The notes below the pieces were generated by a model. It did not search any database and had not been told where the DNA came from. It was given only the letters and a program-made list of their open reading frames with translations. 64,000 nt of DNA from an uncultured Acidobacteriota bacterium (GTDB taxonomy: Bacteria > Acidobacteriota > Thermoanaerobaculia > UBA5066 > Gp7-AA6), in assembly GCA_963837495.1 (NCBI GenBank), contig CAWINF010000001.1, forward strand, positions 841,843 through 905,842. Reading direction: 5' to 3'. The position numbers and the translations under genes are program-made. Shown here one piece after another: positions 31,999 to 57,329 of this stretch (position 1 is its first letter; every line of letters starts with the position of its first letter).

Positions 31999-34900
31999 CC
32001 GTGGCGGCGAAGACGAAAAAGGCGCCGCCGGACCAGGCTCAACGCGATGCGGCCATCAAGGAGCGCGACCGCAACGTGATCGTGAATGCCGGCGCGGGCA
32101 CCGGGAAGACTTCCATCCTCGTGAGCCGCTTCGTCGAGATGGTCGCCCCGGCGAAATCTGCCGCGCCCGCGGTTGCAATCCCCCGCATCGCAGCCATCAC
32201 GTTCACGCGGAAGGCCGCCGGAGAACTGCGCTTTCGCATCCGGGAACGTCTGCTGGCCGAGCTGGCAAGTGTCAAGCCAGATTCTCCCCGCGAAGGCCAG
32301 CTCCGCGAAGCCCTGGCTGGTTTCGACACGGCCTACGTAGGAACGATTCACAGCTTCGCCGATCGCCTTTTGCGTCTTCAGCCTGTCAAAGCGTCGCTCA
32401 GCCCCTCGTACGAAATCGCCGAGGACGATGAGGCGCTGGTCCACGAAACGTTCCAGGTGCTTCTGCAGGCCGTCGAGAGCGAAACTCTCGCCGCCGAGCT
32501 CGAGGGCGACGGCGCGGCAGCGCGGGCCGATGAGGCCACGCGAACCATCCTGGACGCCATTGCCGCCGGTTTGCAGGCGGAGACCCGTGAGACAGAGTTT
32601 TGGGTGTATTCCGGGCTGGACGCCCTCGTAAAAGGCTTTCTCCGGCAGCGCGATGTGCCGCCGCCGTTCGACGCTCCTCCCGCCTCGATTGATTTCGGAG
32701 CCTTCCGCAAAGCCGCGGACGAATTCATACGCGAAGCCGCTCCGGTTATCGGCGGATCCATCAGCGCGGCATGGATCAAACAAACGGCGGAGATCCTCGC
32801 CGGCGTCCGAAACCTGGAAGACCCGATCGCCCTGTATCGCAGCCTCGGCCTGCAACTGCGCCGCAGGTCGCCCAAGAGTGACGCCCAGAAAGGCAGAGAC
32901 TTCGGCGGCGATGCCGCGGCCTGGCGGGTGTGGAAGCTGTACAGCAAGGCTGACGGGAAGCTTCGCCCGACCCCGCTCCGCAATGACCTGCGGGCGCCGC
33001 TCGAGCGCTGGATGGCCAGCCGCCTCGTCCGTCTCTTTCCAGTCGTGAAGGCTCTCTACGAAAAGGTTAAAGCGCGCCACAGGCAACTCGACCAGCTCGA
33101 CCTGCTTTTCAAGTTGCGTACCCTCCTCAAAGACAACCGCGAAGTGCGGGCCGAGTTCCAGGGAATGTTCGATCACATCTTCGTGGACGAATTCCAGGAT
33201 ACGGATCCGCTCCAGGCGGAGATCGTGCTCTTCCTCTGCGAGCGGGGACCCGTCGCGGCGCGTTGGGAGGACGTCCGTCTCGCCGGCGGGAAGCTGACGG
33301 TGGTCGGCGACGCCAAACAGTCCATCTACCGGTTCCGCCGGGCGGACGTGGCGATGTACGACCGCGTCCTGCGCGTCATCGCGAAGACGCCGCTCCTCGA
33401 GGTCAGGCTCTCCGCGAACTTCCGGAGCGTTCCTCCTCTCATCGACTGGTTCAACGACCGGTTTGCTCGCATCCTCAGAGAATCGCAAGACGCCTTCGAC
33501 CCCGTGACCGGGCGGGTCTTCCACCAGCCGCTCGCGAGGGGTCGCGACGTCCCCGGCCCGCCATCCGTCCATGTCCTGAATCTCGCCTTTTCGGACGGCG
33601 AGAAGCACAACGCTGATGACTACCGCTCACTCGAAGGCCGGGCGCTGGCCCGGTACCTGCGCTGGTTGACCGAAACGGATGACGTCCGGATCCTCGACCC
33701 GTTCGACGAGCGCCTCCGGAAGGTTCGATACGGCGACATCGCGGTTCTGGCGGCCTCGACGTGGAGCCTTCCTCATCTGTTCCAACCGCTGGACGAGGAG
33801 GGCATCCCCTACGCATCGCGCGGCGGCGTCCTGTTCCTCAAAGACCCGCTCCACCGGCAGTTCCTGCTCGGTCTCCGAGCCATCGCCGACCGCGATGACG
33901 GCGTCGCCATGGCGGCTTTGCTCCGGCCCCCTTTCTTCGCCGTAGATCCCGCGGACCTCCTCCGCGAGCAAGTCGCGACCCGCGCCGGAGAAGCGCCCGC
34001 CGGAGACTCCGCCCTCCGCGCCCGGGAAGCTCGAGACCTGGTTGTTGACCTGCGCCGGCGCAGATCCGGCCGCCCTCCCGGCGCGACCGCGCGGGACCTG
34101 CTGGAGCGCACGGCGTTCGCGCGCAACGTGGCTTCCGGGCCGAACGGCACGCAGCGCCTCGCGCGGCTGCGGGAGCTTTGCCTGCTCCTGGAGCAGCTCG
34201 CCGCCGATGAAGGGCTCGACTACGACGCCGCGACGTCCCTCATGCGGGAGTGGGTGGATGATCCTGTCCAGCTCGACCCGCCACATCCCGTCGGAGCCGA
34301 AGCGGTTCAAATCCTGACCGTCCATCAGGCCAAAGGCCTCGAGTTTCCCGTCGTCGTCATCTGGGACGGGCAGGGCAAATGGGCCCCGCCCGCCGGGAAC
34401 GCCCCCTGGCGCATGGAGCGTGATGGCCGAGGCTGGATGATGGATCTCGCCGGCCTGACGTGGGAGGAGCCCGCCGGTCTCGGCATCCGCAAGACGGAGC
34501 TCGACTACCAGAGACAGGAGCGTGAGCGCGTGGCCTACGTCGCCGCCACCCGCGCCCGCGACCTGCTGGTCATTCCGAAAGCCGGCGACCTCAAGCCAGG
34601 GACTTACGTGTGCAGCGATCTTCTCGCTGAAGCGCCCTCCCATCTTGTCAACGAGCTCGAGCCCTACACTGACGGCCACGAGCCCGCCTGGGCCACGCAG
34701 AAACCCGCAACCACGCAGCTCCCCAAAGATGGAGGAACTGTCGAACAGGCAACCGACGCCTGGTGGACAGCCGCCTCTGCGGAATCCGCCCGCCCCCGCT
34801 TCCGCCCCGCGAGTGTCTCCGGCGAGACTCAATCCACCCCCGTGGACGACACCGAGGAAGTGGTGGATCCCGCCCTCGCGAAACCACGGGAAGGCCGCTT

Positions 34901-35372
34901 GGGCCCTCTGTTCGGCACGGCAGTTCACCACGCAATCGGCCTCATCCTTCGTGACAGCACCCTGACACCCGAGGAAGCCGCCCGCCGGGCCGCCAGGCGA
35001 TTCGGCCTCGAGGACCACCTCCCCGAGTGCATCGCCGACGTCACCCGAGCCCTCGACTCCCTCCGAACAGAGGGCCTCGCCCGCCCCCTCGGCCCCGACC
35101 TCCAGGTCGAATACTCTGTCGCCGCGGAATGGGAAGGCGGCCAACTCCTGGGCGGCTACATCGACCTCGTCAGCGCGACCGACGGCCGCCTCGACGTACT
35201 CGACTTCAAGACCGACGCCCCACCGCAAGGGCCGGTGGAGCAGACCTACCCGGAGTACGCGGTCCAGGTGCAAACCTACGGCCGCCTTCTGGAGACAACC
35301 GCCGCGCTCGGAGCCCATGAACTCCGCTGCGGCCTTCTCTTCACGGCCGACGGAGGAATCCGATGGGTCTAA
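31995..35372 (+). CDS. AddA-like UvrD/Rep-family helicase with C-terminal nuclease domain; GTG start overlaps upstream stop (GTGA)
   Basis: NAGAGTGKTSILVSRF (Walker A), ITFTRKAAGELRFRI, VDEFQDTDPLQ, TVVGDAKQSIYRFRRAD, TVHQAKGLEFPVVV, C-terminal DFKTD. Confidence 0.75.
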   Translation: MTVAAKTKKAPPDQAQRDAAIKERDRNVIVNAGAGTGKTSILVSRFVEMVAPAKSAAPAVAIPRIAAITFTRKAAGELRFRIRERLLAELASVKPDSPREGQLREALAGFDTAYVGTIHSFADRLLRLQPVKASLSPSYEIAEDDEALVHETFQVLLQAVESETLAAELEGDGAAARADEATRTILDAIAAGLQAETRETEFWVYSGLDALVKGFLRQRDVPPPFDAPPASIDFGAFRKAADEFIREAAPVIGGSISAAWIKQTAEILAGVRNLEDPIALYRSLGLQLRRRSPKSDAQKGRDFGGDAAAWRVWKLYSKADGKLRPTPLRNDLRAPLERWMASRLVRLFPVVKALYEKVKARHRQLDQLDLLFKLRTLLKDNREVRAEFQGMFDHIFVDEFQDTDPLQAEIVLFLCERGPVAARWEDVRLAGGKLTVVGDAKQSIYRFRRADVAMYDRVLRVIAKTPLLEVRLSANFRSVPPLIDWFNDRFARILRESQDAFDPVTGRVFHQPLARGRDVPGPPSVHVLNLAFSDGEKHNADDYRSLEGRALARYLRWLTETDDVRILDPFDERLRKVRYGDIAVLAASTWSLPHLFQPLDEEGIPYASRGGVLFLKDPLHRQFLLGLRAIADRDDGVAMAALLRPPFFAVDPADLLREQVATRAGEAPAGDSALRAREARDLVVDLRRRRSGRPPGATARDLLERTAFARNVASGPNGTQRLARLRELCLLLEQLAADEGLDYDAATSLMREWVDDPVQLDPPHPVGAEAVQILTVHQAKGLEFPVVVIWDGQGKWAPPAGNAPWRMERDGRGWMMDLAGLTWEEPAGLGIRKTELDYQRQERERVAYVAATRARDLLVIPKAGDLKPGTYVCSDLLAEAPSHLVNELEPYTDGHEPAWATQKPATTQLPKDGGTVEQATDAWWTAASAESARPRFRPASVSGETQSTPVDDTEEVVDPALAKPREGRLGPLFGTAVHHAIGLILRDSTLTPEEAARRAARRFGLEDHLPECIADVTRALDSLRTEGLARPLGPDLQVEYSVAAEWEGGQLLGGYIDLVSATDGRLDVLDFKTDAPPQGPVEQTYPEYAVQVQTYGRLLETTAALGAHELRCGLLFTADGGIRWV

Positions 35373-35399: not shown

Positions 35400-36464
35400 G
35401 TGACGGCCGATCTGAATCCTGTGGACGAGCTTCAGTCCAGATTCGGAATCACATGGGAACAAATCAACGCCGCGCGGAAACGCTCTTCGACTGTTCGGGC
35501 CGAACTAACTAAGACTCTGCGGGCGGAGGACTCGGAGGCGGCTTGCATCGTTGGGTACGGGTCTCTCGCCAGGCAAGAGTGGACATCCGGAAGCGATGTC
35601 GATTGGACATTATTGGTGGACGGCCAGGCAGATCCCCAGCACGCACAGACGGTGAACCGAGTTGAGGGCGCCTTGACTGCCGGCAGCCACAAGCATCCGG
35701 GCCGCACTGGCACATTCGCAAGCCTTTCATCCAGCCATGACCTTGTGCACAAGATCGGCGGCGCAGAGGACACGAACCAGAACACGACGCGGCGGATTCT
35801 GCTGCTGCTCGAATCGATTCCTCTCGGTAGATCCGACGCCTACGATCGAGTGAAGCGCAACATCCTTCATCGGTACATCCTGGAAGACCGCGGTCTTCGG
35901 TTCGGAACAACAGATTTCGTTCCCCGCTTTCTGCTGAACGACATCGCTCGATACTGGCGAACGATGGCGGTCGATTTCGCCCAGAAACAGCGTGATCGAG
36001 GGGGACACGGTTCAGGATTGAGGAATGCAAAACTTCGGCTGTCTCGAAAACTCATTTTCGCCTCGGGTCTTCTGAACTGCCTGCGATGCCATGTTGCCCC
36101 CGAGCTTCATACCGTTCGATCGAACCGGCGTTCTCTGGAGTCCGCAGCACTGCTCGTTGTGCACTTTGAGGAGTACCTGAAGATGACGCCCCTCGAGAAC
36201 CTCGCGAAGGCAGTGGTTGACTTTTCTGCCAGTGCGGAAGTTGCCAGGGCGCTTTTTGGAGCGTACGATACTTTTCTCGGCGTTCTCAACAACGATACCA
36301 AGCGGACTCACTTGGATGATCTCGAACCCGAAGCTTTCGAAGGCGACGCTATTTTCGGCGAGGTTCTCGATCTCAGCCACGAATTTCAGAATGGTCTCGA
36401 CGGCTTGTTCTTCGCCACCGATGCAACGTTGACCAGGCTTACCCAGAAATACGGGGTGTTCTGA
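35400..36464 (+). CDS. Nucleotidyltransferase-fold protein (minimal NTase motif GS-x9-DxD) with large helical C-terminal domain, resembling GlnD/GlnE/DUF294-type substrate-binding region; GTG start
   Basis: IVGYGSLARQEWTSGSDVDWTLLV; C-terminal GGHGSGLRNAKLRLSRKLIFASGLL resembles GlnE G-G-G-x-R-[DN]-[IA]-[EK]-[FL]. Confidence 0.55.
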   Translation: MTADLNPVDELQSRFGITWEQINAARKRSSTVRAELTKTLRAEDSEAACIVGYGSLARQEWTSGSDVDWTLLVDGQADPQHAQTVNRVEGALTAGSHKHPGRTGTFASLSSSHDLVHKIGGAEDTNQNTTRRILLLLESIPLGRSDAYDRVKRNILHRYILEDRGLRFGTTDFVPRFLLNDIARYWRTMAVDFAQKQRDRGGHGSGLRNAKLRLSRKLIFASGLLNCLRCHVAPELHTVRSNRRSLESAALLVVHFEEYLKMTPLENLAKAVVDFSASAEVARALFGAYDTFLGVLNNDTKRTHLDDLEPEAFEGDAIFGEVLDLSHEFQNGLDGLFFATDATLTRLTQKYGVF

Positions 36465-37186
36465 TGAGGGTCATCGGCTTTTCGACGGGCGCGGTTGCAA
36501 AAGGCGACTTTCGACGTGCGCTCGGTCTCATCACCGCTGCAAGCGTCGAAGCGGTAGAGCTTTCTGCCCTGCGTCTATCTGAGCTCCAACCGCTCCTTCG
36601 TGCCTTGCCTACCCTGGACCTATCGTCCTTTGGCTATATTTCCGTGCACGCCCCGAGTTCCTTCGCTGAGAGCGACGAAGACGGCGTCGTCAGAGACCTC
36701 GAAGAGTTCACGAGAAGAGACTGGAACGTCATTGTCCACCCGAACGTGATTTATCACCCAGCGGTCTGGCGGAACTTGGGTAGGCGTCTTCTGATTGAGA
36801 ATATGGACCGCCGAAAAGCAGTTGGGCGAACCGCTCCCGAGCTTCGAGGGCTGCTGAACTCGCTTCCGGAGGCCGGGCTCTGCCTCGATCTCGGCCACGC
36901 CCGTCAGGTAGATCCGACGATGACTGAGGCGCTAATGCTGCTCAGGTGGTTTGGGTCTCGGGTTCGCCAGCTTCACGTCAGCGAGGTCAACGAGCGAAGT
37001 CATCATGACCCCATCAGCGCGGGTTCGATAGACGCCTTTCGGTCGATTTCCGATCTCCTGCCCTCGGACGTCCCAATCATCCTTGAGCCCCTCATCGACG
37101 AAGGGCAGAGCGAAATCTCTGTCGAGATAGAGAAGGCGGCAGCGGCCCTCCAGCCCGAAACCTCCCGCGTGGCCTCAGCCGTCTAG
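36464..37186 (+). CDS. Xylose-isomerase-like TIM-barrel protein (sugar-phosphate isomerase/epimerase / AP-endonuclease family 2-like); TGATG overlap with the NTase gene
   Basis: LCLDLGHA and LHVSEVNERSHHDPISAGSIDF resemble the metal-binding motifs of the family. Confidence 0.45.
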   Translation: MRVIGFSTGAVAKGDFRRALGLITAASVEAVELSALRLSELQPLLRALPTLDLSSFGYISVHAPSSFAESDEDGVVRDLEEFTRRDWNVIVHPNVIYHPAVWRNLGRRLLIENMDRRKAVGRTAPELRGLLNSLPEAGLCLDLGHARQVDPTMTEALMLLRWFGSRVRQLHVSEVNERSHHDPISAGSIDAFRSISDLLPSDVPIILEPLIDEGQSEISVEIEKAAAALQPETSRVASAV

Positions 37187-38143
37187 CTCGACGTCATCCC
37201 GCCTTCCTGAAGATTTCGTAGCGCTCGGCCAGGAAGTCGCGGTCGGGCTGGAGGTCTCGGCGGGTCGGGATGAGGATTCGGGAGAGCTCTGGAAGCCCTG
37301 GAGACCGTGGAGGAGCATCGGGCCGTCCTTTTCTCGGAGGATGTCTTGTCGGATCTCGACGATAAGGTCCGGGCGCACACCCAGGATTTGGCCGTCGAAG
37401 GCGGCGTGGTGGAGCTTGCAGAGAGCCAGGCCGTTCGAGACCGTCGGGTCGCCCTTGGGATGGCGGTCCGGGAGGATGTGGGCGGCGTCGAGCAGCTCGA
37501 AGTGCCTGAGGCGGCAGACGGCGCAGCGCTCCTGATACGCCCGGATCACCCGAACCCGGAACCCCGCCTGATGGAGGCGTTGCTGCGTCACTCGCGTGAC
37601 GTAGGCCCGCCTAGCATCGGAGAGGTCGGAGACGAGATGCGCCGTATCCATGACCGCAGCGTCCTTCAGGTCCACGGCCACTGAAAATGCCAGCGACTCG
37701 GGATGATCCCGGACGATGAACACCGGCCAGACCGGCAGGTACTCACCGGGAACTACACCGTAGAGATAGATCAGCGGAACTGCACGCCGCATCGCCAGAC
37801 GCAGCCCCGCGTTGTCCCGATGCCTCGGATCCGTCCCGCGGTACCGGTAGAGAAGGAGACCGTTCTCGTCCATCTCGTCTTCATAGGGCCGTTGTCGCCC
37901 TTCAATCACCGGCGTGGTGTTGAAGGTTAGAGGCATCTCGGGCAAAACGGCTGGCTTGAAGATGCCCTGCGGATTGATGAGCGGAACCCTCTGCCCGTCG
38001 AACCAGAAACCCTCGGCCAGGATTTTGCGCGGGAGCACCTCACCCCGAAGCTCCGTCTGAGTTCGGAGAAACTCGAACGCCGCGATCCTGACCCGCTGGT
38101 CAAACTCCCGCGCCGCCGTCCATGGATCCTGATCCTCGGTCAC
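37175..38143 (-). CDS. HNH endonuclease (HNH_2-type) with ~200-aa N-terminal domain; apparent +2 indel shifts the last ~30 codons relative to the 27722-27967 paralogue fragment
   Basis: CAVCRL...LDAAHILP...NGLALCKLHHAAFD; C-terminus LHGLQGFQSSPESS... vs paralogue LHSLQGFQGARILIPTRRDLQPDRDFLAERYE. The correct-frame RILIPTRRDLQPDRDFLAERYEIFRKAG is present in DNA at 37199-37290. Confidence 0.65.
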   Translation of the reverse strand: MTEDQDPWTAAREFDQRVRIAAFEFLRTQTELRGEVLPRKILAEGFWFDGQRVPLINPQGIFKPAVLPEMPLTFNTTPVIEGRQRPYEDEMDENGLLLYRYRGTDPRHRDNAGLRLAMRRAVPLIYLYGVVPGEYLPVWPVFIVRDHPESLAFSVAVDLKDAAVMDTAHLVSDLSDARRAYVTRVTQQRLHQAGFRVRVIRAYQERCAVCRLRHFELLDAAHILPDRHPKGDPTVSNGLALCKLHHAAFDGQILGVRPDLIVEIRQDILREKDGPMLLHGLQGFQSSPESSSRPAETSSPTATSWPSATKSSGRRDDVELDG

Positions 38144-38329: not shown

Positions 38330-41826
<3,497 letters not shown>

Positions 41827-41830
<4 letters not shown>

Positions 41831-42435
41831 GGCGAGAAGAGGTTGATGAACTTCACTTCATCGCGCCGATCGAAAACGTTGCTTCGATCCTCACGATGGG
41901 CATTCTTTCGAACGAGCGGGCTCGAAGCATCTCGCATCTCTCGATAGCCATGGAGGAGGTTCAAGTGCGGCGCGACATGAAGACGGTCCCCGGGGGTCGA
42001 CCACTTCACGAGTACGCCAATCTGTACTTCACCGCTCGTAACCCGATGATGTTCAAGAAGCAGGCGATCCACGCGGAGACTTGCGTTCTACGTGTCGACC
42101 CATGCGTCCTCGATCTGTCAGGCGTCGTCGTAACCGACAGGAACGCATCACGCGGATGGGCTCGCTTTCGCCCCCCCGCAGAAGGACTCGGAGCCCTGAA
42201 ACACGAAGAGATCTTCGCGGATGATTGGCGCCATCCCGGAGATCCGGTTGCCTACGACCGCCATAAGGGCCTTAAGTGCGCCGAAGTTCTTGTGCCAGAC
42301 CGGGTTGAGCCAAGTCTGATTCGCGGAGCGTACGTTTCCTCCGACGAGGCATTTCGACGTCTGTCCGATGCTTGTCCGGCGCTCGACGTTCGGAAGTACC
42401 CTCACCTTTTCTTCTTAGAAGGTGGCCTCGAATGA
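41827..42435 (+). CDS. darT: DarT-like ssDNA ADP-ribosyltransferase toxin (DUF4433); ATGA overlap with the helicase stop
   Basis: ELHFIAPIENVASILTMGILSN...VPGGRPLHEYANLYFTARNPMMFK matches the DarT N-terminal consensus. Confidence 0.65.
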
Positions 42436-43562
42436 CCGTTCAGACTCTTGTGGGTAATCTTTTCGACTCCTCTGCGCAGACGCTTGTCAACACCGTAAAC
42501 ACGGTTGGGGTGATGGGCAAAGGAATCGCCCTTGAGTTCAGGAAGCGGTTCCCGGAGATGCACCAGGATTATGTGGCACGCTGCGCCGCCGGTAAAATCC
42601 ACCTCGGCGAGCCATACCTCTTCAAGGCGCTGCTGCCTCCGTGGATCCTCAACTTCCCGACGAAGGAGCACTGGCGGTCAGTCTCGCGGGTGGCCGACAT
42701 CGTGCGCGGATTGGAGTACCTCGAAAGGAATTACAAGGCCTGGGGAATCACATCACTGGCCGTTCCGCCTCTCGGCTGCGGTCTCGGGCAGCTCGAATGG
42801 CGGGTCGTTGGGCCTACACTCTTTCGTCACCTAAGCCGTCTCGATATTCCGGTTGAACTCTTCGCGCCGCATGGCACACCAGCCGAACAGCTCGACCCGC
42901 TGTTTTTGGGCATCGTCCCTCAGGCGCAAGCAGCCACTACGAACGGTCCCGAACAGGCTCGTATAGATGCAGCGTCCGTAGCTCTCGCGGAGATTCTCGC
43001 CCGGATTGCGAGGGAGCCCTACCATCGCCCGGTGGGTCGAACGATTTTTCAGAAGATTGCTTTCTTCGCGACGGAAGAGGGGATCCCAACGCGGCTTGAC
43101 TTTGCGCCCGAGAGTTATGGGCCGTTCTCCACAAGCGTTAAGCCCCTGCTCACGAGGCTCGTCAACAATGGTCTGCTCGTGGAGACCAAGCTCGGGCGGA
43201 TGTTCCGCCTGGATCCAGGTCCCACTTTCACAGATGCCTGCAAGACATTCGCGGACGCGATTTCGCAGTGGGAACCTGCAATCGAACGGATCGCGGACCT
43301 CTTTTTGAGAATGACTACTGAGCAGGCTGAAATCGCAGCGACCGTCTTTTACGCGGCCCGCCATCTGGTCGGCAATGGCGAGACGCCTCCGACGGAGCGC
43401 GACGTTCTTTCCGCGGTAAAGCAATGGAAGCGCAGGCGGAGTCCCCAGCTACGTGACGAGGATTTGGCTCTGGCAATCCGGAACCTTAACGTTCTTGGCT
43501 GGTTAAACACGCGGGCCAGCACGGATCTCCCGCTTCCTGAGGCCGCTTCTATTGGAGCATAA
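42432..43562 (+). CDS. darG: DarG-like macrodomain antitoxin; ATGA overlap with darT
   Basis: N-terminal macrodomain VNTVNTVGVMGKGIALEFRKRFP; ~240-aa C-terminal domain. Confidence 0.65.
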   Translation: MTVQTLVGNLFDSSAQTLVNTVNTVGVMGKGIALEFRKRFPEMHQDYVARCAAGKIHLGEPYLFKALLPPWILNFPTKEHWRSVSRVADIVRGLEYLERNYKAWGITSLAVPPLGCGLGQLEWRVVGPTLFRHLSRLDIPVELFAPHGTPAEQLDPLFLGIVPQAQAATTNGPEQARIDAASVALAEILARIAREPYHRPVGRTIFQKIAFFATEEGIPTRLDFAPESYGPFSTSVKPLLTRLVNNGLLVETKLGRMFRLDPGPTFTDACKTFADAISQWEPAIERIADLFLRMTTEQAEIAATVFYAARHLVGNGETPPTERDVLSAVKQWKRRRSPQLRDEDLALAIRNLNVLGWLNTRASTDLPLPEAASIGA

Positions 43563-43616
43563 CGGGTTACCTGCTACTACCAAACGCCGAAGCGTGGCGG
43601 AGTACGCTGAGTCGCT

Positions 43617-44414
43617 GTGGTGAAAAAGGCGGTGCCGCCAGACCCCCGTCCAGCGCAGCTCTCGGTCGGCGAGATTCGCACCGCCATACCGAAGCTCGAG
43701 CGCCGCCTTGCAGAGGTGGAAGCCCTTGAACCCGATGGTATCCAAGGACGACCTGACCCGGCCTTTAGGGCAGTTGAAGACAAGATCGACAGTACGTTGG
43801 TCGAGGTTTTCGGACCTGACACGCTCGACTATAGGCGATTCACCGTCGGGCCTCTGTACAAGGGAGCCCTCTACAGGGGCGGCATGCCCATTGCGGAGGT
43901 CCGCGAGGGGTATCGGCGAGGGAAGGATCAGGCGGCTGGGAAACTCAAAACAGCAATCGAGATTCTGAGAGAAAAGCTCTTGGCTGTCCTGGGCACAGCT
44001 AACTCCGGAGCCGCGACGCCCCCGTCGCTCGATGCGCTCGATCTCGATCCGCAACTGAGAAATCGCGTTGCCCCGCTCTTTAGGGATGGTCATTATGCCA
44101 ACGCGATCGAGGACGCTTGCAAGGTTCTCGACCTCCTCGTCAAGTTGCGCAGCGGGCGAGAAGATCTGTCCGGGACGGAGTTAATGCAGGCAGTCTTCTC
44201 CGAGAGAAACCCGGTGCTTAGGTTCAACGACGGTGTGATGGAGACCGACAGAAGTGAGCAAAAGGGCATGATGTTCCTGTACTCGGGTACGATGTTGGCC
44301 CTGCGCAACCCCCGAGCCCACGGCTTTCAACCGGACGACGCCGCGACAGCCATCCAAGTTATCTCCATCATTAATTTCCTTATCGGTGCTCTGGGTAGGA
44401 CGACGAAAGCCTAG
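43617..44414 (+). CDS. HEPN-domain protein (TIGR02391-like); GTG start
   Basis: C-terminal FRDGHYANAIEDACKVLDLLV...MMFLYSGTMLALRNPRAHG (Rx4H motif). Confidence 0.5.
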   Translation: MVKKAVPPDPRPAQLSVGEIRTAIPKLERRLAEVEALEPDGIQGRPDPAFRAVEDKIDSTLVEVFGPDTLDYRRFTVGPLYKGALYRGGMPIAEVREGYRRGKDQAAGKLKTAIEILREKLLAVLGTANSGAATPPSLDALDLDPQLRNRVAPLFRDGHYANAIEDACKVLDLLVKLRSGREDLSGTELMQAVFSERNPVLRFNDGVMETDRSEQKGMMFLYSGTMLALRNPRAHGFQPDDAATAIQVISIINFLIGALGRTTKA

Positions 44415-44419
44415 TCAGG

Positions 44420-47296
44420 ATGGCATCGAAGAAGCTCATCGAGGTCGCCCTGCCCCTGCCCGAGATCAACGATGCCTCGGCTTACGACAAGAGACCTGGA
44501 ATCGGGCCTCACCCTAAGGGAATCCACCACTGGTGGGCGCGCCTCCCGCTGCCAACGGCGCGGGCGGTGCTCTTTGCGTCGGTGGTGGACGACCCGAGCG
44601 GCCATCCGGAGAAGTGGCTGACGGAAGAAGCGCAGGACGCCGAGCGCGAGCGGCTTTTCGAAATCATACGCCGCATGATGGGTAAGAAGCTGCATACGCA
44701 TCCGGAGGTGTACGCCGAAGCGCGTGCCGAGATGCTCGATGACACCGGTGGAAAGCTTCCCGTCGCGTTCGACCCGTTCGCTGGTGGCGGCTCGATCCCG
44801 CTCGAGGCCAATCGTCTCGGCTTCGAGCCCCATGCCGGCGATCTCAACCCCGTAGCGGTGCTCCTCAACAAGTGCAGTCTCGAGATCGCCCCTCACTGGG
44901 CCAGCCGAGCACCAGTCAATCCGGAGGACCGCGCGCAGATCGGCGGAACAGAATCATGGCCCGGAACGCGTGGGCTTGCGGCCGACGTTCGTTACTACGG
45001 TAGGCTCATCCAAGACCGGGCGCGGCAGAAGATCGGGCACCTCTACCCGAAAGTCCGATTGCCGAGGGCGGAAGGGGGCGGGGAAGCAAACGTGATCGCC
45101 TGGATTTGGGCGCGCACCGTGGCGAGCCCCGATCCGTCGGCGCGTGGTGCCCACGTACCGCTAGTCAGTACTTTCTGGCTCTCAGCTAAGAAGGGAATGG
45201 AGGCGCGGCTCGAACCGATCGTGGACAGGGACGCGCGCATCTGGCGGTTCGCTGTGCGCCTGGGGATTCCCACCGAATGCACCGGGAAGCGCCCAGGGCA
45301 GAAGTGGAAGGATCACGCCAAAGAGTGCATCGCGTGCGCGGCGGTGGTATTTGGAACGAAGACAGGAAGAGCGCAGTTTCGCTGCCTCCTGACAGGCGCG
45401 CCGATCTCCGACGATCACATCAAGGCCGAGGGAGTTGCAGGCCGGCTCGGCAGTGTCTTGCTTGCGATCGTGGCGGAGGGCAAACGGGGACGCGTGTATC
45501 TCGATAGCTCCGATGCGCAAGTCGAGGCAGCAAGTGTCACGGCTCCCGTCGGGCAGGTGGAAGAACCGCTGGCCGAAGATCCCCGGAACATCTGGTGCGT
45601 CGGATATGGTCTCGATCGCTTCCGCCGGCTCTTTACCCCTCGCCAACTCACAGCAATGGTGACACTGAGTGACCTGGTGAAGGCGATCGCGGCGGACGTG
45701 AGGCGCGACGCGAAGGCGACGCTCGCCTCCGACGAGGTCCAGGCTTACGGCCTCGCGGTTACGACGTTTCTGGCGCTGGCGGTAGACCGGTGCGCAGACT
45801 TCAATAACACCTTATGTCGGTGGGATCAAAGCGCCGCCGGTCAGAGAGTAAAGAACCTATTCGGGCGGCAGGCGATCCCCATGTTGTGGGATTTCGCCGA
45901 GGCCAATACCCTCGGAGAGAAGTCTGTCTGCTGGGCGAACGCAGTAGATGTCACCGCCGACGCGATCGGCGCGCTCGCGTCTTCTGAGCGAATGCGAGGA
46001 ACCGCCCGCCAGATCGACGCTGCCACAGGGGCCAATGGGCTCAAGAACCTTCTCGTTAGCACCGATCCTCCCTACTACGACAACATCAGCTACGCTGGGC
46101 TCTCGGACTTCTTCTACGTCTGGCTCCGGCGCACGATCGGTGACCTTTACCCGGATCTCTTCAGCACAGTGCTTGTGCCGAAGGTGCCGGAACTCACGGC
46201 CGCGCCCGAACGCTTCGGCGGCGACAAGCAAAAGGCCAAGGAGCACTTCGAATCTGGCTTTCGCAAGGCCTTCACCGCGCTGCGCGAGAAGATGGATCCG
46301 CGATTTCCTCTTACCGTTTACTACGCCTTCAAGCAGGCCGACGAGGAAGGCGGAGGCGACGACGAGGATGCCGAGGGCGTTCCGCGCGTGGACCTTACCA
46401 CTGGCTGGGAGACGCTCCTCGAGGCGCTCATCGCGAGCGGCTTCCAGATCACGGCTACGTGGCCCGTGCGTGCGTCGCAGGCCTGGCGCATGCGCGCGAT
46501 GGACTCCAACGCCCTGGCCTCGTACATCGTGCTCGCCTGTCGCCCACGCAACGATGACGTCCCGCAGCCCGACCGCCGCTCGTTCGTTGCCGAACTCAAG
46601 CGGGAGTTGCCCATTGCGCTACGCCATCTTCAACAGGGCAACATCTCGCCGGTCGACTTTGCTCAGGCTGCCATTGGGCCGGGGATGGCAATCTACTCGC
46701 GATACAGTCAAATACTCGAGAGCAGTGGCAAAGCGATGAAAGTTCGTGGGGCGCTCTCGCTCATCAACCAAACTCTCACGGAGGTGCTGTCGGAACAGGA
46801 TGACGACTTCGACGCCGACACTCGGTGGGCGCTGGCGTGGTTCGATCAATCGGGATTCGACGCCGGAGAGTACGGCGCTGCAGAGACGCTCTCCAAGGCC
46901 AAGAATACAAGCGTCCAGGGCATGAAGGACGCCGGCATTCTCGACAAGAAGTCTCCGGGCGGAAAAGTTCGTCTGCTCAAACCGAGCGAACTGCGCGAGG
47001 ACTGGGACCCAGGCACCGACCCGCGCCTCACGGCATGGGAAGTCGTTCACCACCTGATCCGTGCTCTGGAGGAGGGCGGCGAGGCTGCGGCGGCAAAACT
47101 GGTCGCCAAACTCGGGAGCAAGGCCGAAGTTGCCCGCGAACTTGCCTACCGGCTCTACGCGATCTGCGAGCGGAAGAAACGCGCCGCCGAAGCGCTTTCC
47201 TACAATGCACTCGTCCAGAGCTGGCCCGAGATCACTCGTCTCGCTCGCGAGAGCCGCAAATCGAAGCCAGAGCAAGCCGCAATGTTCGGAGAGTAA
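44420..47296 (+). CDS. DUF1156-family N6-adenine DNA methyltransferase with inserted Zn ribbon
   Basis: N-terminal KLIEVALPLPEINDASAYDKRPGIGPHPKGIHHWWARLPL; FDPFAGGGS (motif I), LVSTDPPYYDNISY (motif IV, DPPY), CIACAA...C Zn ribbon. Confidence 0.7.
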   Translation: MASKKLIEVALPLPEINDASAYDKRPGIGPHPKGIHHWWARLPLPTARAVLFASVVDDPSGHPEKWLTEEAQDAERERLFEIIRRMMGKKLHTHPEVYAEARAEMLDDTGGKLPVAFDPFAGGGSIPLEANRLGFEPHAGDLNPVAVLLNKCSLEIAPHWASRAPVNPEDRAQIGGTESWPGTRGLAADVRYYGRLIQDRARQKIGHLYPKVRLPRAEGGGEANVIAWIWARTVASPDPSARGAHVPLVSTFWLSAKKGMEARLEPIVDRDARIWRFAVRLGIPTECTGKRPGQKWKDHAKECIACAAVVFGTKTGRAQFRCLLTGAPISDDHIKAEGVAGRLGSVLLAIVAEGKRGRVYLDSSDAQVEAASVTAPVGQVEEPLAEDPRNIWCVGYGLDRFRRLFTPRQLTAMVTLSDLVKAIAADVRRDAKATLASDEVQAYGLAVTTFLALAVDRCADFNNTLCRWDQSAAGQRVKNLFGRQAIPMLWDFAEANTLGEKSVCWANAVDVTADAIGALASSERMRGTARQIDAATGANGLKNLLVSTDPPYYDNISYAGLSDFFYVWLRRTIGDLYPDLFSTVLVPKVPELTAAPERFGGDKQKAKEHFESGFRKAFTALREKMDPRFPLTVYYAFKQADEEGGGDDEDAEGVPRVDLTTGWETLLEALIASGFQITATWPVRASQAWRMRAMDSNALASYIVLACRPRNDDVPQPDRRSFVAELKRELPIALRHLQQGNISPVDFAQAAIGPGMAIYSRYSQILESSGKAMKVRGALSLINQTLTEVLSEQDDDFDADTRWALAWFDQSGFDAGEYGAAETLSKAKNTSVQGMKDAGILDKKSPGGKVRLLKPSELREDWDPGTDPRLTAWEVVHHLIRALEEGGEAAAAKLVAKLGSKAEVARELAYRLYAICERKKRAAEALSYNALVQSWPEITRLARESRKSKPEQAAMFGE

Positions 47297-47299
47297 CTC

Positions 47300-50200
47300 A
47301 TGGCGATCACGAATCAGGAGCGCGTCGGTAAAGCGATGGAGCTACTCAAGGATGGGCTGGCTCCCTTCGTTGAGCGCGAGCTGAAGGCGCATCACGCTCA
47401 GAGCTGGTTTGAGGAAGCAAAGGCAGCAGTGAGCGAGATGCAAACAAGCTTCCTTGGAAGCGCCTCGGCGCCGAAGTGGGACGTTGGCTCGCTCCTGGTG
47501 GTCATGTGGAATCAGTGGAACCTCGTCTTCCGAAAGACCCTGGGCCAGGCCGAGCGAACTCTCGTGAGCGAGCTTCGCGACGCGCGCAAACGGTGGGCCC
47601 ACCAGGACGCCATCTCTGGCGACGACGCTTACCGGACTCTTGACTCAGCCAGCCGGCTGCTGACGGCCGTCTCCGCGCCGCAGTCGGACGAACTCGAGAA
47701 GATGAAGATGGAGCTCCTGCGCGTCCGATTCGACGAGCAGGTGCGAAGCGAAAAGCGGAAGAGCGCCGGGGCGGCCATCGAGAGTGCAGCGGCTGGGACC
47801 TTGAAGCCCTGGCGGGAGGTCGTCACGCCTCACAAGGACGTGGCTAGCGGCCGCTATCAGCAGGCGGAGTTCGCAGCCGACCTCTGGCAAGTACACCTCG
47901 GTGAGGGGACCGACGAATACCGGGATCCAGTCGAATTCTTCCGGCGGACGTACCTCACTGAAAGCCTCAAGGGGCTGCTCGTCGGGGCGGTGCAGCGAAT
48001 GGCCGGGCACGGCGGCGACCCCGTGGTGCAGCTCCAAACGAACTTTGGCGGCGGCAAGACCCACTCGATGCTCGCGCTCTACCACCTGTTTTCCAAGGCA
48101 ACTCTCAGCCAGTTGCCTGGCGCGGGTGCGATTCTGAATGAGGCCGGGGTCTCGAAGCTTCCCTCGGTTAATCGCGTCGTGCTCGTGGGTAATAAGATCT
48201 CGCCGGGAAACCCGGTCACGAAGCCCGACGGGACCGTCGTTCGGACGCTGTGGGGTGAGCTTGCGTGGCAGCTTGGCTTCGCGGCCGGCGGGGCCAAGGA
48301 AGCGAAGAAGGCTTTCCAGCGCGTCGCGCCGGACGACGAGAGGGCTACCAGCCCCGGTGACGCGCTGCGGGAGCTGATGAACGAGTACGGGCCGTGCCTG
48401 ATTCTGATCGACGAGTGGGTGGCCTACGCGCGGCAGCTCCACGATCAGAGCGACCTGCCGGCCGGAAGTTTCGAAACCCACTTCAGCTTTGCCCAGGTGC
48501 TTACGGAATCCGCGAAGGCGGCGAAGAAGTGCCTGCTGGTGATCAGCTTGCCCGCCTCGGACACCACGGGCTCTCCCCACGCGGTGGCCGACGACGTCGA
48601 GGTGGGCGGTGAACGAGGGCGCGCGGCGCTTGATCGCCTGCGCAATGCCGTAGGCCGTATCGAGGCGTCTTGGCGGCCGGCCAGCGCGGAGGAGAGTTTC
48701 GAGATTGTTCGGCGGCGACTTTTCGAGCCACTCGTTGAGAAGGCACAATTTGTGGCACGGGACACAGTGGCCCGGGCCTTCTACGACCTCTACCGGACGC
48801 AACATCAGGAATTCCCGCCCGAGTGCCGCGATTCGGACTACGAGAATCGGCTCAAGGCTGCCTATCCCATACATCCCGAGGTCTTCGACCGGCTCTACAA
48901 CGATTGGTCCACGCTGGTGAAGTTCCAGCGCACGCGCGGCGTGCTGCGGCTGATGGCGGCCGTGATCCACAGCCTGTGGCAGAAGGGCGACAGGAACCCG
49001 CTGATTCTTCCCGCCAACATCTCCATCGACGATCCGCGCGTCCAGTTCGAGCTCACGCGCTACCTCTCGGACAACTGGGTGCCCGTGATTGAGAAGGACG
49101 TGGACGGCCCTAATGTGCTGCCACTCCGGCTGGATGGCGAGGTGCCCAACCTCGGCAAGTACGCCGCCTGCCGCCGCGTGGCGCGGACGATCTACCTCGG
49201 GTCGGCACCCACCGCCACCGCCGCCCATCGGGGCATCGAGGACCGACGAATCAAACTTGGCTGCGTGATGCCAGGCGAGTCGCCCGCCGTCTTCGGCGAT
49301 GCTCTGCGGCGGCTCGCCGGCGCGGCCACGTACCTCTATCAGGATGGCCCGCGCTACTGGTACTCGACACAGCCGACGGTTACTAAGCTCGCGGAGGATC
49401 GCGCCGAGCAACTCAAACGCGATCCGGACAAGGTCGTGAAGGAGCTGGAGTCGCGCATCAGCGAGGACGTCACCGAGGACAGGCGAGAGAAGACAAGCAG
49501 AAAAGGCGCCTTCAGCCGCGTCCACCCGCTGCCGCACAGCGGCCAGGATGTGCCCGACGACATGGATGCCCGCCTCGTGATCCTCGACATCGACCATCCC
49601 TACGGCAAGGAGCCGGGCAATCCCGCTGAAGCCCAGGCAAATGCGATTCTCGAGTCCCGTGGCAACACGCCGCGCCTGTTCCGCAACACGTTGGTCTTCC
49701 TGGCTGTTGACCAGGCACGCCTGCAGGACCTCGACGAGGCGGCACGTCGTTACCTCGCCTGGGAATCCATCTTGGCCGAGAAGGTGACGCTGGATCTCTC
49801 GCCGCATCAAGTGAAACAGGCCGAGACCCAGAGGACGTCAGCCGACGGCGCCGTGACCGCTCGACTCCCCGAAGCGTACCAGTGGCTCCTGATTCCCACG
49901 CAGAGCACCCCGCAATCGCCGGTAAAGTGGCAGGCAGTCCGCCTCACAGGCCAGGACGCGCTAGCGGCAAGGGCCAGCAAGAAGCTCCGAGGCGACGATT
50001 CCCTCGTAACCGGGCTAGGCGCGACCGTTCTACGAAAATACCTCGACGAGGTTCCCCTCTGGCGTGGCGATCACGTCGACATCAGACAGCTCGGCGAAGA
50101 CTTCGCGCGCTATCTCTACCTTCCCCGAATCAAGGACACCTCCGTGCTGATCGGCGCGATCCGTAGTGGGCTCAACCTGATCACCTGGGAGAAGGACTCC

Positions 50201-50677
50201 TTCGGCTACGCCGACAGCTTCGACGAGGCGACCGGCCGATACCGAGGCCTCCAAGTCGGCCGAAACGTCTCCATCTCGGACGAGGACTCTCACGGTCTAC
50301 TCGTCAAGCCCGAAGTTGCCGCTCGACAGCTAGCCCAGGAAACCGCCGCCTCTTCCTACCCCGCAGGCGCCGCCCCCACAGCTCTTCAAGCCAACGGTCC
50401 CGCAGCGACGGCGGCACCCCTCACCGCTCCCGCACCTCGCCTCCTCACGCGCTTCCACGGCTCCGTCCACCTTGACGCCTCCCGCCTAGGCCGAGACGCG
50501 GGCAGAATCGCTGAAGAAATCGTCCAACACCTAGCGGCCTTGGTAGGCTCCGACGTCGAAGTGACGTTGGAAATCCACGCCGCCGTCCCCACCGGCACCC
50601 CCGACCAGGTAGTCCGCACCGTATCCGAAAACTGCCGCACCTTGAGATTCACAGACTTTGGGTTTGAGGAAGATTAG
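47300..50677 (+). CDS. DUF499-family large P-loop ATPase
   Basis: NFGGGKTHSMLALYHLF Walker A; LILIDEWVAY Walker B; 1125 aa. Confidence 0.6.
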   Translation: MAITNQERVGKAMELLKDGLAPFVERELKAHHAQSWFEEAKAAVSEMQTSFLGSASAPKWDVGSLLVVMWNQWNLVFRKTLGQAERTLVSELRDARKRWAHQDAISGDDAYRTLDSASRLLTAVSAPQSDELEKMKMELLRVRFDEQVRSEKRKSAGAAIESAAAGTLKPWREVVTPHKDVASGRYQQAEFAADLWQVHLGEGTDEYRDPVEFFRRTYLTESLKGLLVGAVQRMAGHGGDPVVQLQTNFGGGKTHSMLALYHLFSKATLSQLPGAGAILNEAGVSKLPSVNRVVLVGNKISPGNPVTKPDGTVVRTLWGELAWQLGFAAGGAKEAKKAFQRVAPDDERATSPGDALRELMNEYGPCLILIDEWVAYARQLHDQSDLPAGSFETHFSFAQVLTESAKAAKKCLLVISLPASDTTGSPHAVADDVEVGGERGRAALDRLRNAVGRIEASWRPASAEESFEIVRRRLFEPLVEKAQFVARDTVARAFYDLYRTQHQEFPPECRDSDYENRLKAAYPIHPEVFDRLYNDWSTLVKFQRTRGVLRLMAAVIHSLWQKGDRNPLILPANISIDDPRVQFELTRYLSDNWVPVIEKDVDGPNVLPLRLDGEVPNLGKYAACRRVARTIYLGSAPTATAAHRGIEDRRIKLGCVMPGESPAVFGDALRRLAGAATYLYQDGPRYWYSTQPTVTKLAEDRAEQLKRDPDKVVKELESRISEDVTEDRREKTSRKGAFSRVHPLPHSGQDVPDDMDARLVILDIDHPYGKEPGNPAEAQANAILESRGNTPRLFRNTLVFLAVDQARLQDLDEAARRYLAWESILAEKVTLDLSPHQVKQAETQRTSADGAVTARLPEAYQWLLIPTQSTPQSPVKWQAVRLTGQDALAARASKKLRGDDSLVTGLGATVLRKYLDEVPLWRGDHVDIRQLGEDFARYLYLPRIKDTSVLIGAIRSGLNLITWEKDSFGYADSFDEATGRYRGLQVGRNVSISDEDSHGLLVKPEVAARQLAQETAASSYPAGAAPTALQANGPAATAAPLTAPAPRLLTRFHGSVHLDASRLGRDAGRIAEEIVQHLAALVGSDVEVTLEIHAAVPTGTPDQVVRTVSENCRTLRFTDFGFEED

Positions 50678-52866: not shown

Positions 52867-52873
52867 GGAACCA

Positions 52874-57306: not shown

Positions 57307-57329
57307 GAGCCAATGATACCTCGAGCTCC

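What the first reader, a model, noticed from the sequence alone, without database searches (positions are those of the whole stretch)
41827..43562. DarT-DarG module translationally coupled to the upstream helicase
DarT (ssDNA thymidine ADP-ribosyltransferase, DUF4433 signature HF...N..SIL..G.LS ... VPGG..LH.Y..LYF...NPM) begins with an ATG that overlaps the helicase stop codon (CATGAGG at 41826-41832). The macrodomain antitoxin DarG begins with an ATG overlapping the DarT stop. DarTG is an established abortive-infection TA. Its insertion inside a larger R-M-like operon, coupled 3-prime of an SNF2/DUF3883 helicase, suggests the toxin pair is wired to the helicase. One possibility is that the helicase or nuclease supplies the ssDNA substrate, or that it stabilises the island.
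Basis: partly seen in the sequence, partly recalled or inferred. Interest (0 to 1): 0.65.

Follow-up and report, generated by a model that had tools for sequence, protein, structure and literature searches.

The report
DarTG toxin-antitoxin cargo inside Hma defence operon
A complete DarT-DarG DNA-ADP-ribosylating toxin-antitoxin pair sits, as one of many interchangeable cargo modules, in the variable slot between the helicase and methylase genes of a known "Hma" phage-defence operon; this is a clear example of a documented arrangement, not a new system.

Summary
darT (41827-42435) starts with an ATG that overlaps the helicase stop (ATGA). darG (42432-43562) overlaps the darT stop in the same way. 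Both proteins are full-length DarTG2-type proteins with their catalytic residues intact.

The "R-M-like operon" is an Hma system: HmaA is the SNF2/NOV_C helicase, HmaB the DUF1156 methylase and HmaC the DUF499 ATPase. darT, darG and a HEPN (Ymh) gene are embedded between hmaA and hmaB.

The arrangement recurs. HmaA is the immediate upstream neighbour of darT in 16 of 73 related loci, across many phyla and two divergent Hma lineages.

The wiring idea is not supported:
- The same DarTG clade is mostly free-standing.
- Only about 2 of 63 close Hma relatives carry DarTG. The others carry GmrSD-like, ABC-ATPase, PIN and other cargo in the same slot.
- Relatives with about 90% identical hmaA and hmaC carry entirely different cargo.
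- The ATGA overlap at the hmaA stop occurs whatever gene follows, including hmaB itself.

Embedding in Hma (Payne 2024 preprint) and DarTG embedded in type I R-M operons are both published. Verdict: a new member of a known kind, of modest interest.

The parts
38330..41830 (+). hmaA: SNF2-family helicase with C-terminal NOV_C (DUF3883) domain, 1166 aa; first gene of the Hma system
   Evidence: PADLOC HmaA at 1753.6 bits, covering model positions 1-1170 of 1176; Pfam SNF2-rel_dom, Helicase_C, ResIII, NOV_C
41827..41830 (+). ATGA junction: the darT start codon overlaps the hmaA stop codon
   Evidence: Read directly from the sequence. The same -4 overlap occurs in relatives L009, L010, L014, L021, L077 and L091, and with unrelated downstream genes in 37/80 Hma loci
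41827..42435 (+). darT: ssDNA ADP-ribosyltransferase toxin, 202 aa (DarT2 type)
   Evidence: Pfam PF14487 at 3.1e-33; PADLOC DarT at 1e-32. R49, H61, Y67, M74 and E153 align with Thermus R51, H65, Y71, M78 and E160 and are invariant in a 40-sequence alignment
42432..42435 (+). ATGA junction: the darG start codon overlaps the darT stop codon
   Evidence: Read directly from the sequence; AGGTGG lies 6 nt upstream
42432..43562 (+). darG: macrodomain ADP-ribosyl-DNA glycohydrolase antitoxin with a C-terminal DarT-binding domain, 376 aa
   Evidence: PADLOC DarG at 5.8e-88 (model positions 3-326 of 329); Pfam Macro. K78 and W81 align with T. aquaticus K80 and W83 (5m31, 4e-30). Residues 190-350 match the M. 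tuberculosis DarG C-terminal domain 7yk3_B at 7.6e-7
43617..44414 (+). Third embedded gene: Hypoth_Ymh / HEPN-like protein, 265 aa, with an RNPRAH (Rx4H) motif
   Evidence: Pfam PF09509 at 1.7e-25; PADLOC Aga_HEPN at 1.6e-11; motif read in the translation. No homologue found by tblastn in the 88 DarT-related or 80 Hma-related loci screened
44420..47296 (+). hmaB: DUF1156 DNA methyltransferase, 958 aa
   Evidence: PADLOC HmaB at 1031 bits over its full length; Pfam DUF1156
47300..50677 (+). hmaC: DUF499 ATPase with an N-terminal Swt1-like HEPN domain, 1125 aa
   Evidence: PADLOC HmaC at 1133.8 bits (aa 167-1124); Pfam HEPN_Swt1 (aa 11-125) and DUF499

Best explanation
Bases 41827-43562 encode a complete and apparently active DarTG2-type toxin-antitoxin pair. 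DarT is an ssDNA ADP-ribosyltransferase, probably thymidine-specific. DarG is a macrodomain hydrolase with a DarT-sequestering C-terminal domain. Together with a HEPN (Ymh) gene, the pair is cargo embedded in the variable slot between hmaA and hmaB of an Hma (helicase-methylase-ATPase) defence system.

Shown: the identities, the catalytic residues, the embedding, the recurrence, the interchangeability of the cargo and the generic nature of the ATGA junction.

Inferred: the whole hmaA-darT-darG-ymh-hmaB-hmaC string is one transcript, so darT translation rides on hmaA translation and darG on darT. DarTG then works autonomously as an abortive-infection layer: on infection DarT escapes DarG and ADP-ribosylates ssDNA, blocking replication. 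It would act alongside the methylation-based Hma layer and share its regulation and horizontal transfer, but would not need the helicase biochemically.
For: Identity and catalytic residues:
- Family matches and full-length coverage for DarT, DarG and HmaA/B/C.
- Catalytic residues are conserved. Matches to DarT2 structures are much stronger than to DarT1 (7omu 1.7e-30, 7omv 2.2e-17, 7yk3_A 2e-9, against 8baq 5e-6).

Autonomy and interchangeability:
- Free-standing DarTG of the same clade exists (L003, L005). In an NJ tree, Hma-embedded and free-standing pairs are interspersed.
- In 63 close type-1 Hma loci where both hmaA and hmaB are seen, the gap between them runs from about 0 to 6.2 kb. 52 have inserts; cargo ORFs with GmrSD_N number 9, ABC ATPase 8, PIN 6, AlbA_2 6 and DarT 2.
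- L169 and L170 share about 90% nucleotide identity with the window over hmaA, up to about 40 bp before its stop, and 87-91% over hmaC. Their cargo is entirely different.
- Four blindly chosen type-2a HmaA homologues have no DarTG (0 of 4).
- Cargo GC3 is 0.63-0.68, against 0.75-0.81 for the hma genes.

Expression:
- An ATG at -4 of the hmaA stop, opening an ORF of at least 80 aa, occurs in 37/80 loci with many different downstream genes, including hmaB itself (L145, L167).
- No promoter- or terminator-like site lies on the + strand inside 38330-50677 (weak evidence).

Literature:
- 62.7% of Hma systems have embedded genes, oriented like the host system in 96.7% of cases pooled over Hma, BREX, DISARM and type I R-M (10.1101/2024.01.29.577857).
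Against: HmaA is by far the commonest upstream neighbour of this DarT clade (16/73; the next family reaches at most 3). Insertion is always directly after hmaA, in two Hma lineages that share only about 33% HmaA identity. Within the type-2a lineage, DarTG identity tracks HmaA identity (Mantel r 0.62, p about 5e-4). All this shows a preferential and sometimes long-lived association that pure neutral 'sink' insertion does not fully explain.

No expression, toxicity or phage data exist for this locus. Hma's own mechanism is unknown.
Confidence: 0.78

Rival explanations
1. Functional integration with Hma. The HmaA translocase/helicase exposes ssDNA on invading DNA, which DarT then ADP-ribosylates. 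Alternatively, DarTG is a guard that fires when a phage inhibits Hma, as PrrC does with EcoprrI. Either way the pair would be an effector or back-up of Hma, not an independent system.
For: The junction is tight and conserved, always directly 3' of hmaA: a -4 overlap in type-1 loci and a 3-63 bp gap in type-2 loci. HmaA is the dominant upstream neighbour (16/73). DarTG co-diverges with HmaA in the type-2a lineage. DarT needs ssDNA (PMC9967889). A PrrC-type precedent is discussed for embedded systems.
Against: The same slot holds many unrelated cargos with the same ATGA junction. The cargo differs between backbones that are about 90% identical. Most DarTG of the clade are free-standing (57/73). 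DarTG2 defends on its own when moved into E. coli, as stated in PMC12255303.
Confidence: 0.12
2. Addiction or stabilisation module. DarTG mainly serves to prevent loss of the Hma island through post-segregational killing, or hitch-hikes selfishly on Hma's horizontal transfer, with little direct antiviral role.
For: Jankevicius et al. proposed this for DarTG inside type I R-M operons (PMC5179494). Payne et al. note a selfish benefit of embedding. Other near-identical backbones carry different TA-like cargo: a Gp49/HTH/SecB-like set, and RelA_SpoT and AbiEii genes. The window has further TA pairs downstream at 55.6-58.3 kb.
Against: The island is chromosomal, and DarTG2 systems have demonstrated anti-phage activity. 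Non-TA cargo (GmrSD-like, ABC ATPases) is at least as common in the slot. This reading is not mutually exclusive with the best explanation.
Confidence: 0.2
3. Physiological growth or replication regulator, as proposed for M. tuberculosis DarTG, unrelated to defence and adjacent to Hma only by chance.
For: M. tuberculosis DarTG controls replication and gene expression (PMC12170906, listed).
Against: The pair sits between two genes of a defence operon, in a lower-GC island packed with defence genes (PDC-M70, HNH, GmrSD-like, TA pairs). The cargo varies between strains.
Confidence: 0.04

Closest known systems
DarTG2 toxin-antitoxin systems (Thermus aquaticus / Thermus sp. 2.9, M. tuberculosis Rv0059-Rv0060, EPEC)
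   Same: Gene order darT then darG. DarT has the PF14487 fold and the R/H/Y/M/E active-site set. DarG has a TARG1-like macrodomain with the catalytic Lys and the stacking Trp, plus a C-terminal DarT-binding domain.
   Different: Identity to the solved proteins is low. Thermus H119 is Asn106 here, invariant in this clade and also Asn in the T. africanus protein. Thermus H13 is Phe11, with a His one residue earlier. Target sequence motif and toxicity are untested.
Thermosipho africanus DarT-DarG fusion protein (PDB 7omu)
   Same: Best solved-structure match for both DarT (1.3e-12; 1.7e-30 with the profile) and the DarG macrodomain (4.3e-36). It shares Asn at the Thermus H119 position.
   Different: There the two are one polypeptide. 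Here they are separate genes overlapping by 4 bp. Single DarT-DarG ORFs do occur in some related loci (L022, L024, L049, L052, L057).
EPEC RRDM island: DarTG2 embedded in a type I R-M system between hsdS and hsdR (PMC12255303); 'DarTG often inserted in type I R-M operons' (PMC5179494)
   Same: A DarTG2 pair is nested, in the same orientation, between genes of a methylation-based restriction-like system and co-regulated with it. The slot is described there as a possible recombination hotspot.
   Different: The host system here is Hma (SNF2/NOV_C helicase, DUF1156 methylase, DUF499 ATPase), not HsdMSR. No RptR-like regulator was identified. In this DarT clade, type I R-M subunits are rare upstream neighbours (about 2-3 of 73) and HmaA is the common one.
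Hma systems with embedded defence genes (Payne et al. 2021 PMC8565338; Payne et al. 2024 preprint 10.1101/2024.01.29.577857)
   Same: hmaA, hmaB and hmaC all match the PADLOC models over their full length. Three co-oriented genes are embedded between hmaA and hmaB. The cargo spectrum in relatives (ABC ATPases, GmrSD-like/HEC-05, PIN) matches what that work reports.
   Different: DarTG is not named as Hma cargo in the text or held supplements of the preprint; the figures could not be read. This lineage's HmaC carries an extra N-terminal Swt1-like HEPN domain.
PrrC anticodon nuclease embedded in EcoprrI (hsdMSR)
   Same: A toxic effector gene nested in an R-M-type operon; it is the textbook case in which embedding reflects functional guarding.
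   Different: No evidence here of physical or functional dependence on the host system. DarT has its own dedicated antitoxin.

Membership tests
DarT (PF14487, DUF4433) ssDNA ADP-ribosyltransferase | Sequence match to the family model above the curated threshold, over the whole domain | tested here: met
   115.6 bits against a cut-off of 22.5, covering profile positions 2-189 of 201; PADLOC DarT at 1e-32
DarT (PF14487, DUF4433) ssDNA ADP-ribosyltransferase | Active-site residues equivalent to Thermus sp. 2.9 R51, H65, Y71, M78 and the catalytic E160 | tested here: met
   R49, H61, Y67, M74 and E153 align and are invariant in 40 homologues. E153 aligns with the Ala that occupies this position in the crystallised chains 7omu and 7yk3_A. 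I take that Ala to be an inactivating E-to-A substitution; this is my inference, since only the Thermus structures are described as E160A.
DarT (PF14487, DUF4433) ssDNA ADP-ribosyltransferase | Thermus H119 (base-locking His) and H13 (NAD ribose contact) | tested here: not met
   These positions are N106 and F11 here. N106 is invariant in the clade and is also Asn in T. africanus DarTG; an H10 lies one residue upstream of F11. These two positions vary among bona fide DarT2 proteins, so this does not exclude membership.
DarT (PF14487, DUF4433) ssDNA ADP-ribosyltransferase | Toxicity on expression; ADP-ribosylation of thymidine in ssDNA | not testable with these tools
   Needs expression and biochemical assays. 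The DarT2 subtype is inferred from the macrodomain partner (PMC11543638) and from much stronger matches to DarT2 than to DarT1 structures.
DarG (DarTG2 antitoxin) | TARG1-like macrodomain with the catalytic Lys (Taq K80) and Trp (W83) | tested here: met
   K78 and W81 in PTKEHW align with TKKHW of 5m31 (4.1e-30). The glycine-rich loop PPLGCGLG is conserved.
DarG (DarTG2 antitoxin) | Second, C-terminal domain that binds and inhibits DarT | tested here: met
   Residues 190-350 match the M. tuberculosis DarG C-terminal chain 7yk3_B (7.6e-7). The PADLOC DarG model is covered at positions 3-326 of 329. Binding itself was not tested.
DarG (DarTG2 antitoxin) | Encoded immediately downstream of darT in one operon | tested here: met
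   4-bp overlap at 42432-42435
Hma defence system (PADLOC) | Co-oriented hmaA (SNF2 helicase), hmaB (methylase) and hmaC (ATPase) in one locus | tested here: met
   HmaA 1753.6 bits, HmaB 1031 bits, HmaC 1133.8 bits, all near full length and all on the + strand between 38330 and 50677
Hma defence system (PADLOC) | Anti-phage activity of the three-gene system | not testable with these tools
   Hma is called 'candidate' and 'putative' in the passages of Payne 2021 that I read. I read no passage that tests Hma itself.
Hma-embedded system (sense of Payne et al. 2024) | Up to three genes lying between two hma genes, in the same orientation, and also found outside Hma loci | tested here: met
   darT, darG and ymh lie between hmaA and hmaB on the + strand. 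The same DarTG clade is free-standing in L003, L005 and most of L009-L088.

The most novel reading that the evidence does not exclude
The hmaA|hmaB slot could be a dedicated 'effector socket'. Its conserved ATGA junction would tie translation of whatever toxin cargo is plugged in (here DarT) to translation of the helicase. In DarTG-bearing lineages the HmaA translocase would generate, or mark, the ssDNA that DarT ADP-ribosylates. Hma plus DarTG would then be a single two-stage system (sense by methylation status, kill by DNA ADP-ribosylation), not two stacked systems.
Probability: 0.1. Interest if true: 0.65.

Novelty: new member of a known kind. Interest (0 to 1): 0.3.

Why it matters
It gives a clean, well-resolved example of a defence system nested inside another. 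It also adds three quantitative points that are not in the text I could read:
- For this DarTG2 clade, the commonest genomic home after free-standing is the slot right behind hmaA: 16 of 73 loci, across many phyla and two Hma lineages.
- The 4-bp start/stop overlap at the hmaA end is kept whatever cargo follows. This suggests that cargo is exchanged together with the last ~40 bp of hmaA and is expressed by translational coupling.
- hmaB is swapped or diverges along with the cargo, while hmaA and hmaC stay about 90% identical.

These points bear on how defence islands diversify and on how toxic cargo is kept under the host system's control. None of them changes what DarTG or Hma is understood to be.

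Tried and rejected
- An exact look-up of the window's DarT (P0001) in the contig index found nothing. The genome scan did not return the source genome. Cluster members carry no organism names. The organism is therefore unidentified. The nearest named relatives are MAGs of Methylomirabilis, Nitrospirales and others.
- DarT, DarG, DUF4433 and Hypoth_Ymh gave no hits, and 'Macro' only irrelevant ones, in the text or held supplements of the Payne 2024 preprint. I cannot say whether its figures list DarTG as Hma cargo.
- A search for the Schuller 2021 DarT structure paper failed. Residue roles were taken from a review instead (PMC9967889).
- The promoter/terminator scan was uninformative: 4 promoter-like sites against 2.7 expected, and none on the + strand inside the operon.
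- I considered that DarTG might be an integral, fixed component of the divergent type-2a Hma lineage, because all six sampled members had it and it co-diverges with HmaA. I rejected this because four HmaA homologues chosen without reference to DarT have other cargo.
- I considered an inactive remnant and rejected it, because both ORFs are full length and the catalytic residues are intact.
- Structure prediction was not run. The sequence-level matches to solved DarT and DarG structures were already decisive.
Full report
**Observation.** The ORF map and raw sequence confirm every coordinate in the finding.
- The 1166-aa helicase ORF runs 38330-41830.
- darT runs 41827-42435 (202 aa). Its ATG shares ATGA with the helicase stop.
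- darG begins at the ATG at 42432, not at the upstream TTG that the ORF lister reports, and ends at 43562 (376 aa). It shares ATGA with the darT stop.
- An AGGTGG lies 6 nt before the darG ATG, and a GGAG lies 13 nt before the darT ATG.

**Identity of the pair.**
- DarT matches Pfam PF14487 at 115.6 bits (cut-off 22.5) and PADLOC DarT at 1e-32.
- DarG matches Pfam Macro and the full-length PADLOC DarG model at 5.8e-88.
- The best solved-structure matches are the T. africanus DarT-DarG fusion 7omu, Thermus DarT 7omv, the T. aquaticus and M. tuberculosis DarG macrodomains 5m31 and 5m3i, and the M. tuberculosis DarG C-terminal domain 7yk3_B.
- Residue roles are taken from PMC9967889. Window R49, H61, Y67, M74 and E153 correspond to Thermus R51, H65, Y71, M78 and E160, and all are invariant in a 40-sequence alignment of relatives.
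- Thermus H119 is an invariant Asn here (N106), as in the T. africanus protein. Thermus H13 is Phe11, with a His one residue earlier. I treat both as clade variation.
- DarG keeps K78 and W81, the equivalents of Taq K80 and W83.
- A macrodomain antitoxin defines the DarTG2 subfamily, which acts on thymidine (PMC11543638). The DarT profile also matches DarT2 structures far better than E. coli C7 DarT1 (1.7e-30 against 5e-6).

**What the surrounding operon is.**
- PADLOC identifies the helicase as HmaA (1754 bits), 44420-47296 as HmaB (DUF1156 methylase) and 47300-50677 as HmaC (DUF499 ATPase, here with an N-terminal Swt1-like HEPN domain).
- So darT, darG and a third gene are embedded between hmaA and hmaB. 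The third gene is 43617-44414, a Hypoth_Ymh/HEPN protein with an RNPRAH motif.
- Gene spacings from hmaA onward are -4, -4, 54, 5 and 3 nt.
- The whole region from about 36 kb onward has lower GC than the upstream addAB region. It is a defence island: PDC-M70A/B, an HNH gene, Hma, a GmrSD-like/AlbA_2 protein, Nmad2 with a UDG-like gene, then several type II TA pairs.

**Published context.**
- Hma was defined by Payne et al. 2021.
- Payne et al. 2024 (preprint) report that 62.7% of 1,485 Hma systems have embedded genes. These are often known defence systems. They are co-oriented with the host system in 96.7% of cases, a figure pooled over Hma, BREX, DISARM and type I R-M.
- DarTG is not named there in the text or supplements I could search.
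- DarTG nested in R-M operons is long known. [quoted passage not shown] The EPEC DarTG2 lies between hsdS and hsdR (PMC12255303).

**Does darTG recur behind HmaA?** Yes.
- A DarT-profile scan of species-representative genomes gave 80 loci at 45-62% identity.
- In 16 of them an HmaA-like ORF stops within 75 bp of the darT start. In a 17th (L083) the upstream region is cut off, but hmaB and hmaC follow darG.
- Scanning the immediate upstream neighbour in 73 evaluable loci, HmaA/NOV_C is present in 16. No other family exceeds 3, and type I R subunits account for about 2-3.
- The hosts span Methylomirabilota, Clostridia, Desulfobacterales, Acidobacteriota, Nitrospirales, Planctomycetota, Gemmatimonadota, Hydrogenedentota and Sumerlaeota.
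- Two Hma lineages are involved. Type 1 has HmaA about 67% identical to the window and a -4 overlap. Type 2 has about 33% identity and gaps of 3-63 bp.
- This sample is biased toward relatives of an Hma-embedded DarT, so 22% is a clade figure and not a figure for all DarTG.

**Is the pair wired to the helicase?** The evidence says it is swappable cargo.
- Free-standing pairs of the same clade exist. In an NJ tree, embedded and free-standing pairs are interspersed.
- I examined 80 metagenomic loci with HmaA 60-75% identical to the window. In the 63 where both hmaA and hmaB are visible, the gap runs from about 0 to 6.2 kb.
  - 52 have at least 485 bp of insert.
  - Cargo ORFs include GmrSD-like (9), ABC ATPases of the HEC-01/Septu/Gabija type (8), PIN (6), AlbA_2/HATPase_c_4 (6) and DarT (2, in L091 and L096).
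- Two contigs, L169 and L170, have HmaA in the same 90% cluster as the window. They share about 90% nucleotide identity with the window from the hmaA start to about 41790, and 87-91% from the hmaC start onward.
  - Between those points they carry quite different genes. L169 has a Gp49/HTH/SecB-like set plus an AAA_16 ATPase. L170 has HTH, NOV_C, RelA_SpoT and DUF4145 genes.
  - Their hmaB is only 67-74% identical to the window's, and only in patches.
- The cargo genes have GC3 of 0.63-0.68, against 0.75-0.81 for hmaA, hmaB and hmaC.
- The ATGA overlap is not specific to darT. In 37 of the 80 loci a start codon sits at -4 of the hmaA stop and opens an ORF of at least 80 aa. These ORFs have many different lengths (about 200, 290, 380, 545 and 1390 aa) and include hmaB itself where there is no cargo (L145, L167).

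**A check on the strongest counter-signal.** Six type-2a loci (HmaA 75-92% identical to each other) all carry DarTG, and DarTG identity tracks HmaA identity (Mantel r 0.62, p about 5e-4). This shows that loaded Hma units spread as units. These loci had been selected through DarT, however. Four HmaA homologues picked blind from the same lineage, 85-90% identical to L015, carry other cargo and no DarTG.

**Mechanism.**
- Shown: an intact DarTG2 pair is embedded, with a HEPN gene, in the hypervariable hmaA-to-hmaC segment of an Hma system.
- Inferred: it is co-transcribed with Hma, and hmaA, darT and darG are translationally coupled.
- Inferred: DarG neutralises DarT by de-ADP-ribosylation and sequestration, and infection frees DarT to ADP-ribosylate ssDNA and abort replication (established for DarTG2).
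- Under this reading DarTG acts in parallel with, and not through, the Hma helicase.
- Wiring (about 0.12) and island stabilisation (about 0.2; not exclusive of the main reading) remain possible.

**Verdict.** This is a new member of a known kind, namely DarTG2 as cargo of an Hma system. Interest is modest. The by-products worth noting are the cargo-independent ATGA junction, the hmaB hypervariability and the high share of this DarT clade that lives behind hmaA.

Noticed in passing
window 41787-41830; loci L089-L168: The hmaA stop is overlapped by the start codon of whatever gene follows (ATGA, GTGA or TTGA) in 37 of 80 close Hma relatives. Homology between near-identical backbones breaks about 40 bp before the hmaA stop. 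The cargo therefore seems to travel with the last codons of hmaA.
   Followed up: partly
window 44420-47296 compared with L169 and L170: hmaB (the methylase) is only 67-74% identical at the nucleotide level, and only in patches, between loci whose hmaA and hmaC are 87-91% identical. The methylase looks like part of the variable segment, which is reminiscent of specificity switching in R-M systems.
   Followed up: partly
window 43617-44414: A third embedded gene: a Hypoth_Ymh (PF09509) HEPN-like protein with an RNPRAH motif. It has no tblastn homologue in the 88 DarT-related or 80 Hma-related loci screened. It may be an independent single-gene RNase-type defence or toxin.
   Followed up: partly
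window 47300-47700 (HmaC residues 11-125): HmaC carries an N-terminal Swt1-like HEPN domain fused to the DUF499 ATPase. The fusion is common in the type-1 lineage (hits cover residues 1-1125 in many loci, and L169 and L170 have it). It is absent in L007 and the type-2a loci, where HmaC is 934-972 aa.
   Followed up: partly
window 50734-54735: Directly after hmaC come three genes. The first is a GmrSD-like DUF262 protein fused to a Schlafen/AlbA_2 domain (HEC-05/BrxU-like). It is followed by an Nmad2 gene and a weak UDG-superfamily match (23.0 bits, just under Pfam's 24.3 cut-off) that overlap by 4 bp. The last two may be a DNA-modification-related pair extending the same operon.
   Followed up: no
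window 35400-38143: A PDC-M70A/B candidate defence pair (full-length PADLOC matches, 1.7e-132 and 2.5e-94) and a divergently oriented HNH endonuclease gene lie just upstream of hmaA. The HNH gene is also present at 87% nucleotide identity next to hmaA in L169.
   Followed up: no
window 28756-35372: An AddB-like (PD-(D/E)XK) and an AddA-like (UvrD helicase plus nuclease) gene pair borders the defence island. GC drops from about 0.66 to 0.58-0.63 just after it.
   Followed up: no
window 14768-15128: A tmRNA gene (Rfam RF00023 at 183.5 bits; ARAGORN tag peptide ANNSNLALAA). It shows the window is chromosomal.
   Followed up: no
window 55596-58328: A cluster of type II toxin-antitoxin genes downstream of the island: two ParE-family toxins (one as the C-terminal part of a 281-aa ORF), an 'Unstab_antitox' antitoxin and a Phd/YefM-PIN pair.
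   Followed up: no
loci L022, L024, L049, L052, L057: In these relatives darT and darG appear to form a single continuous ORF, a fusion like the crystallised T. africanus DarTG. This rests on reading-frame extension only.
   Followed up: no
window 19873-22422: An 849-aa PknB-like Ser/Thr kinase with a C-terminal TolB-like beta-propeller region. It also gives sub-threshold matches to defence-associated kinases (MADS6, PglW).
   Followed up: no
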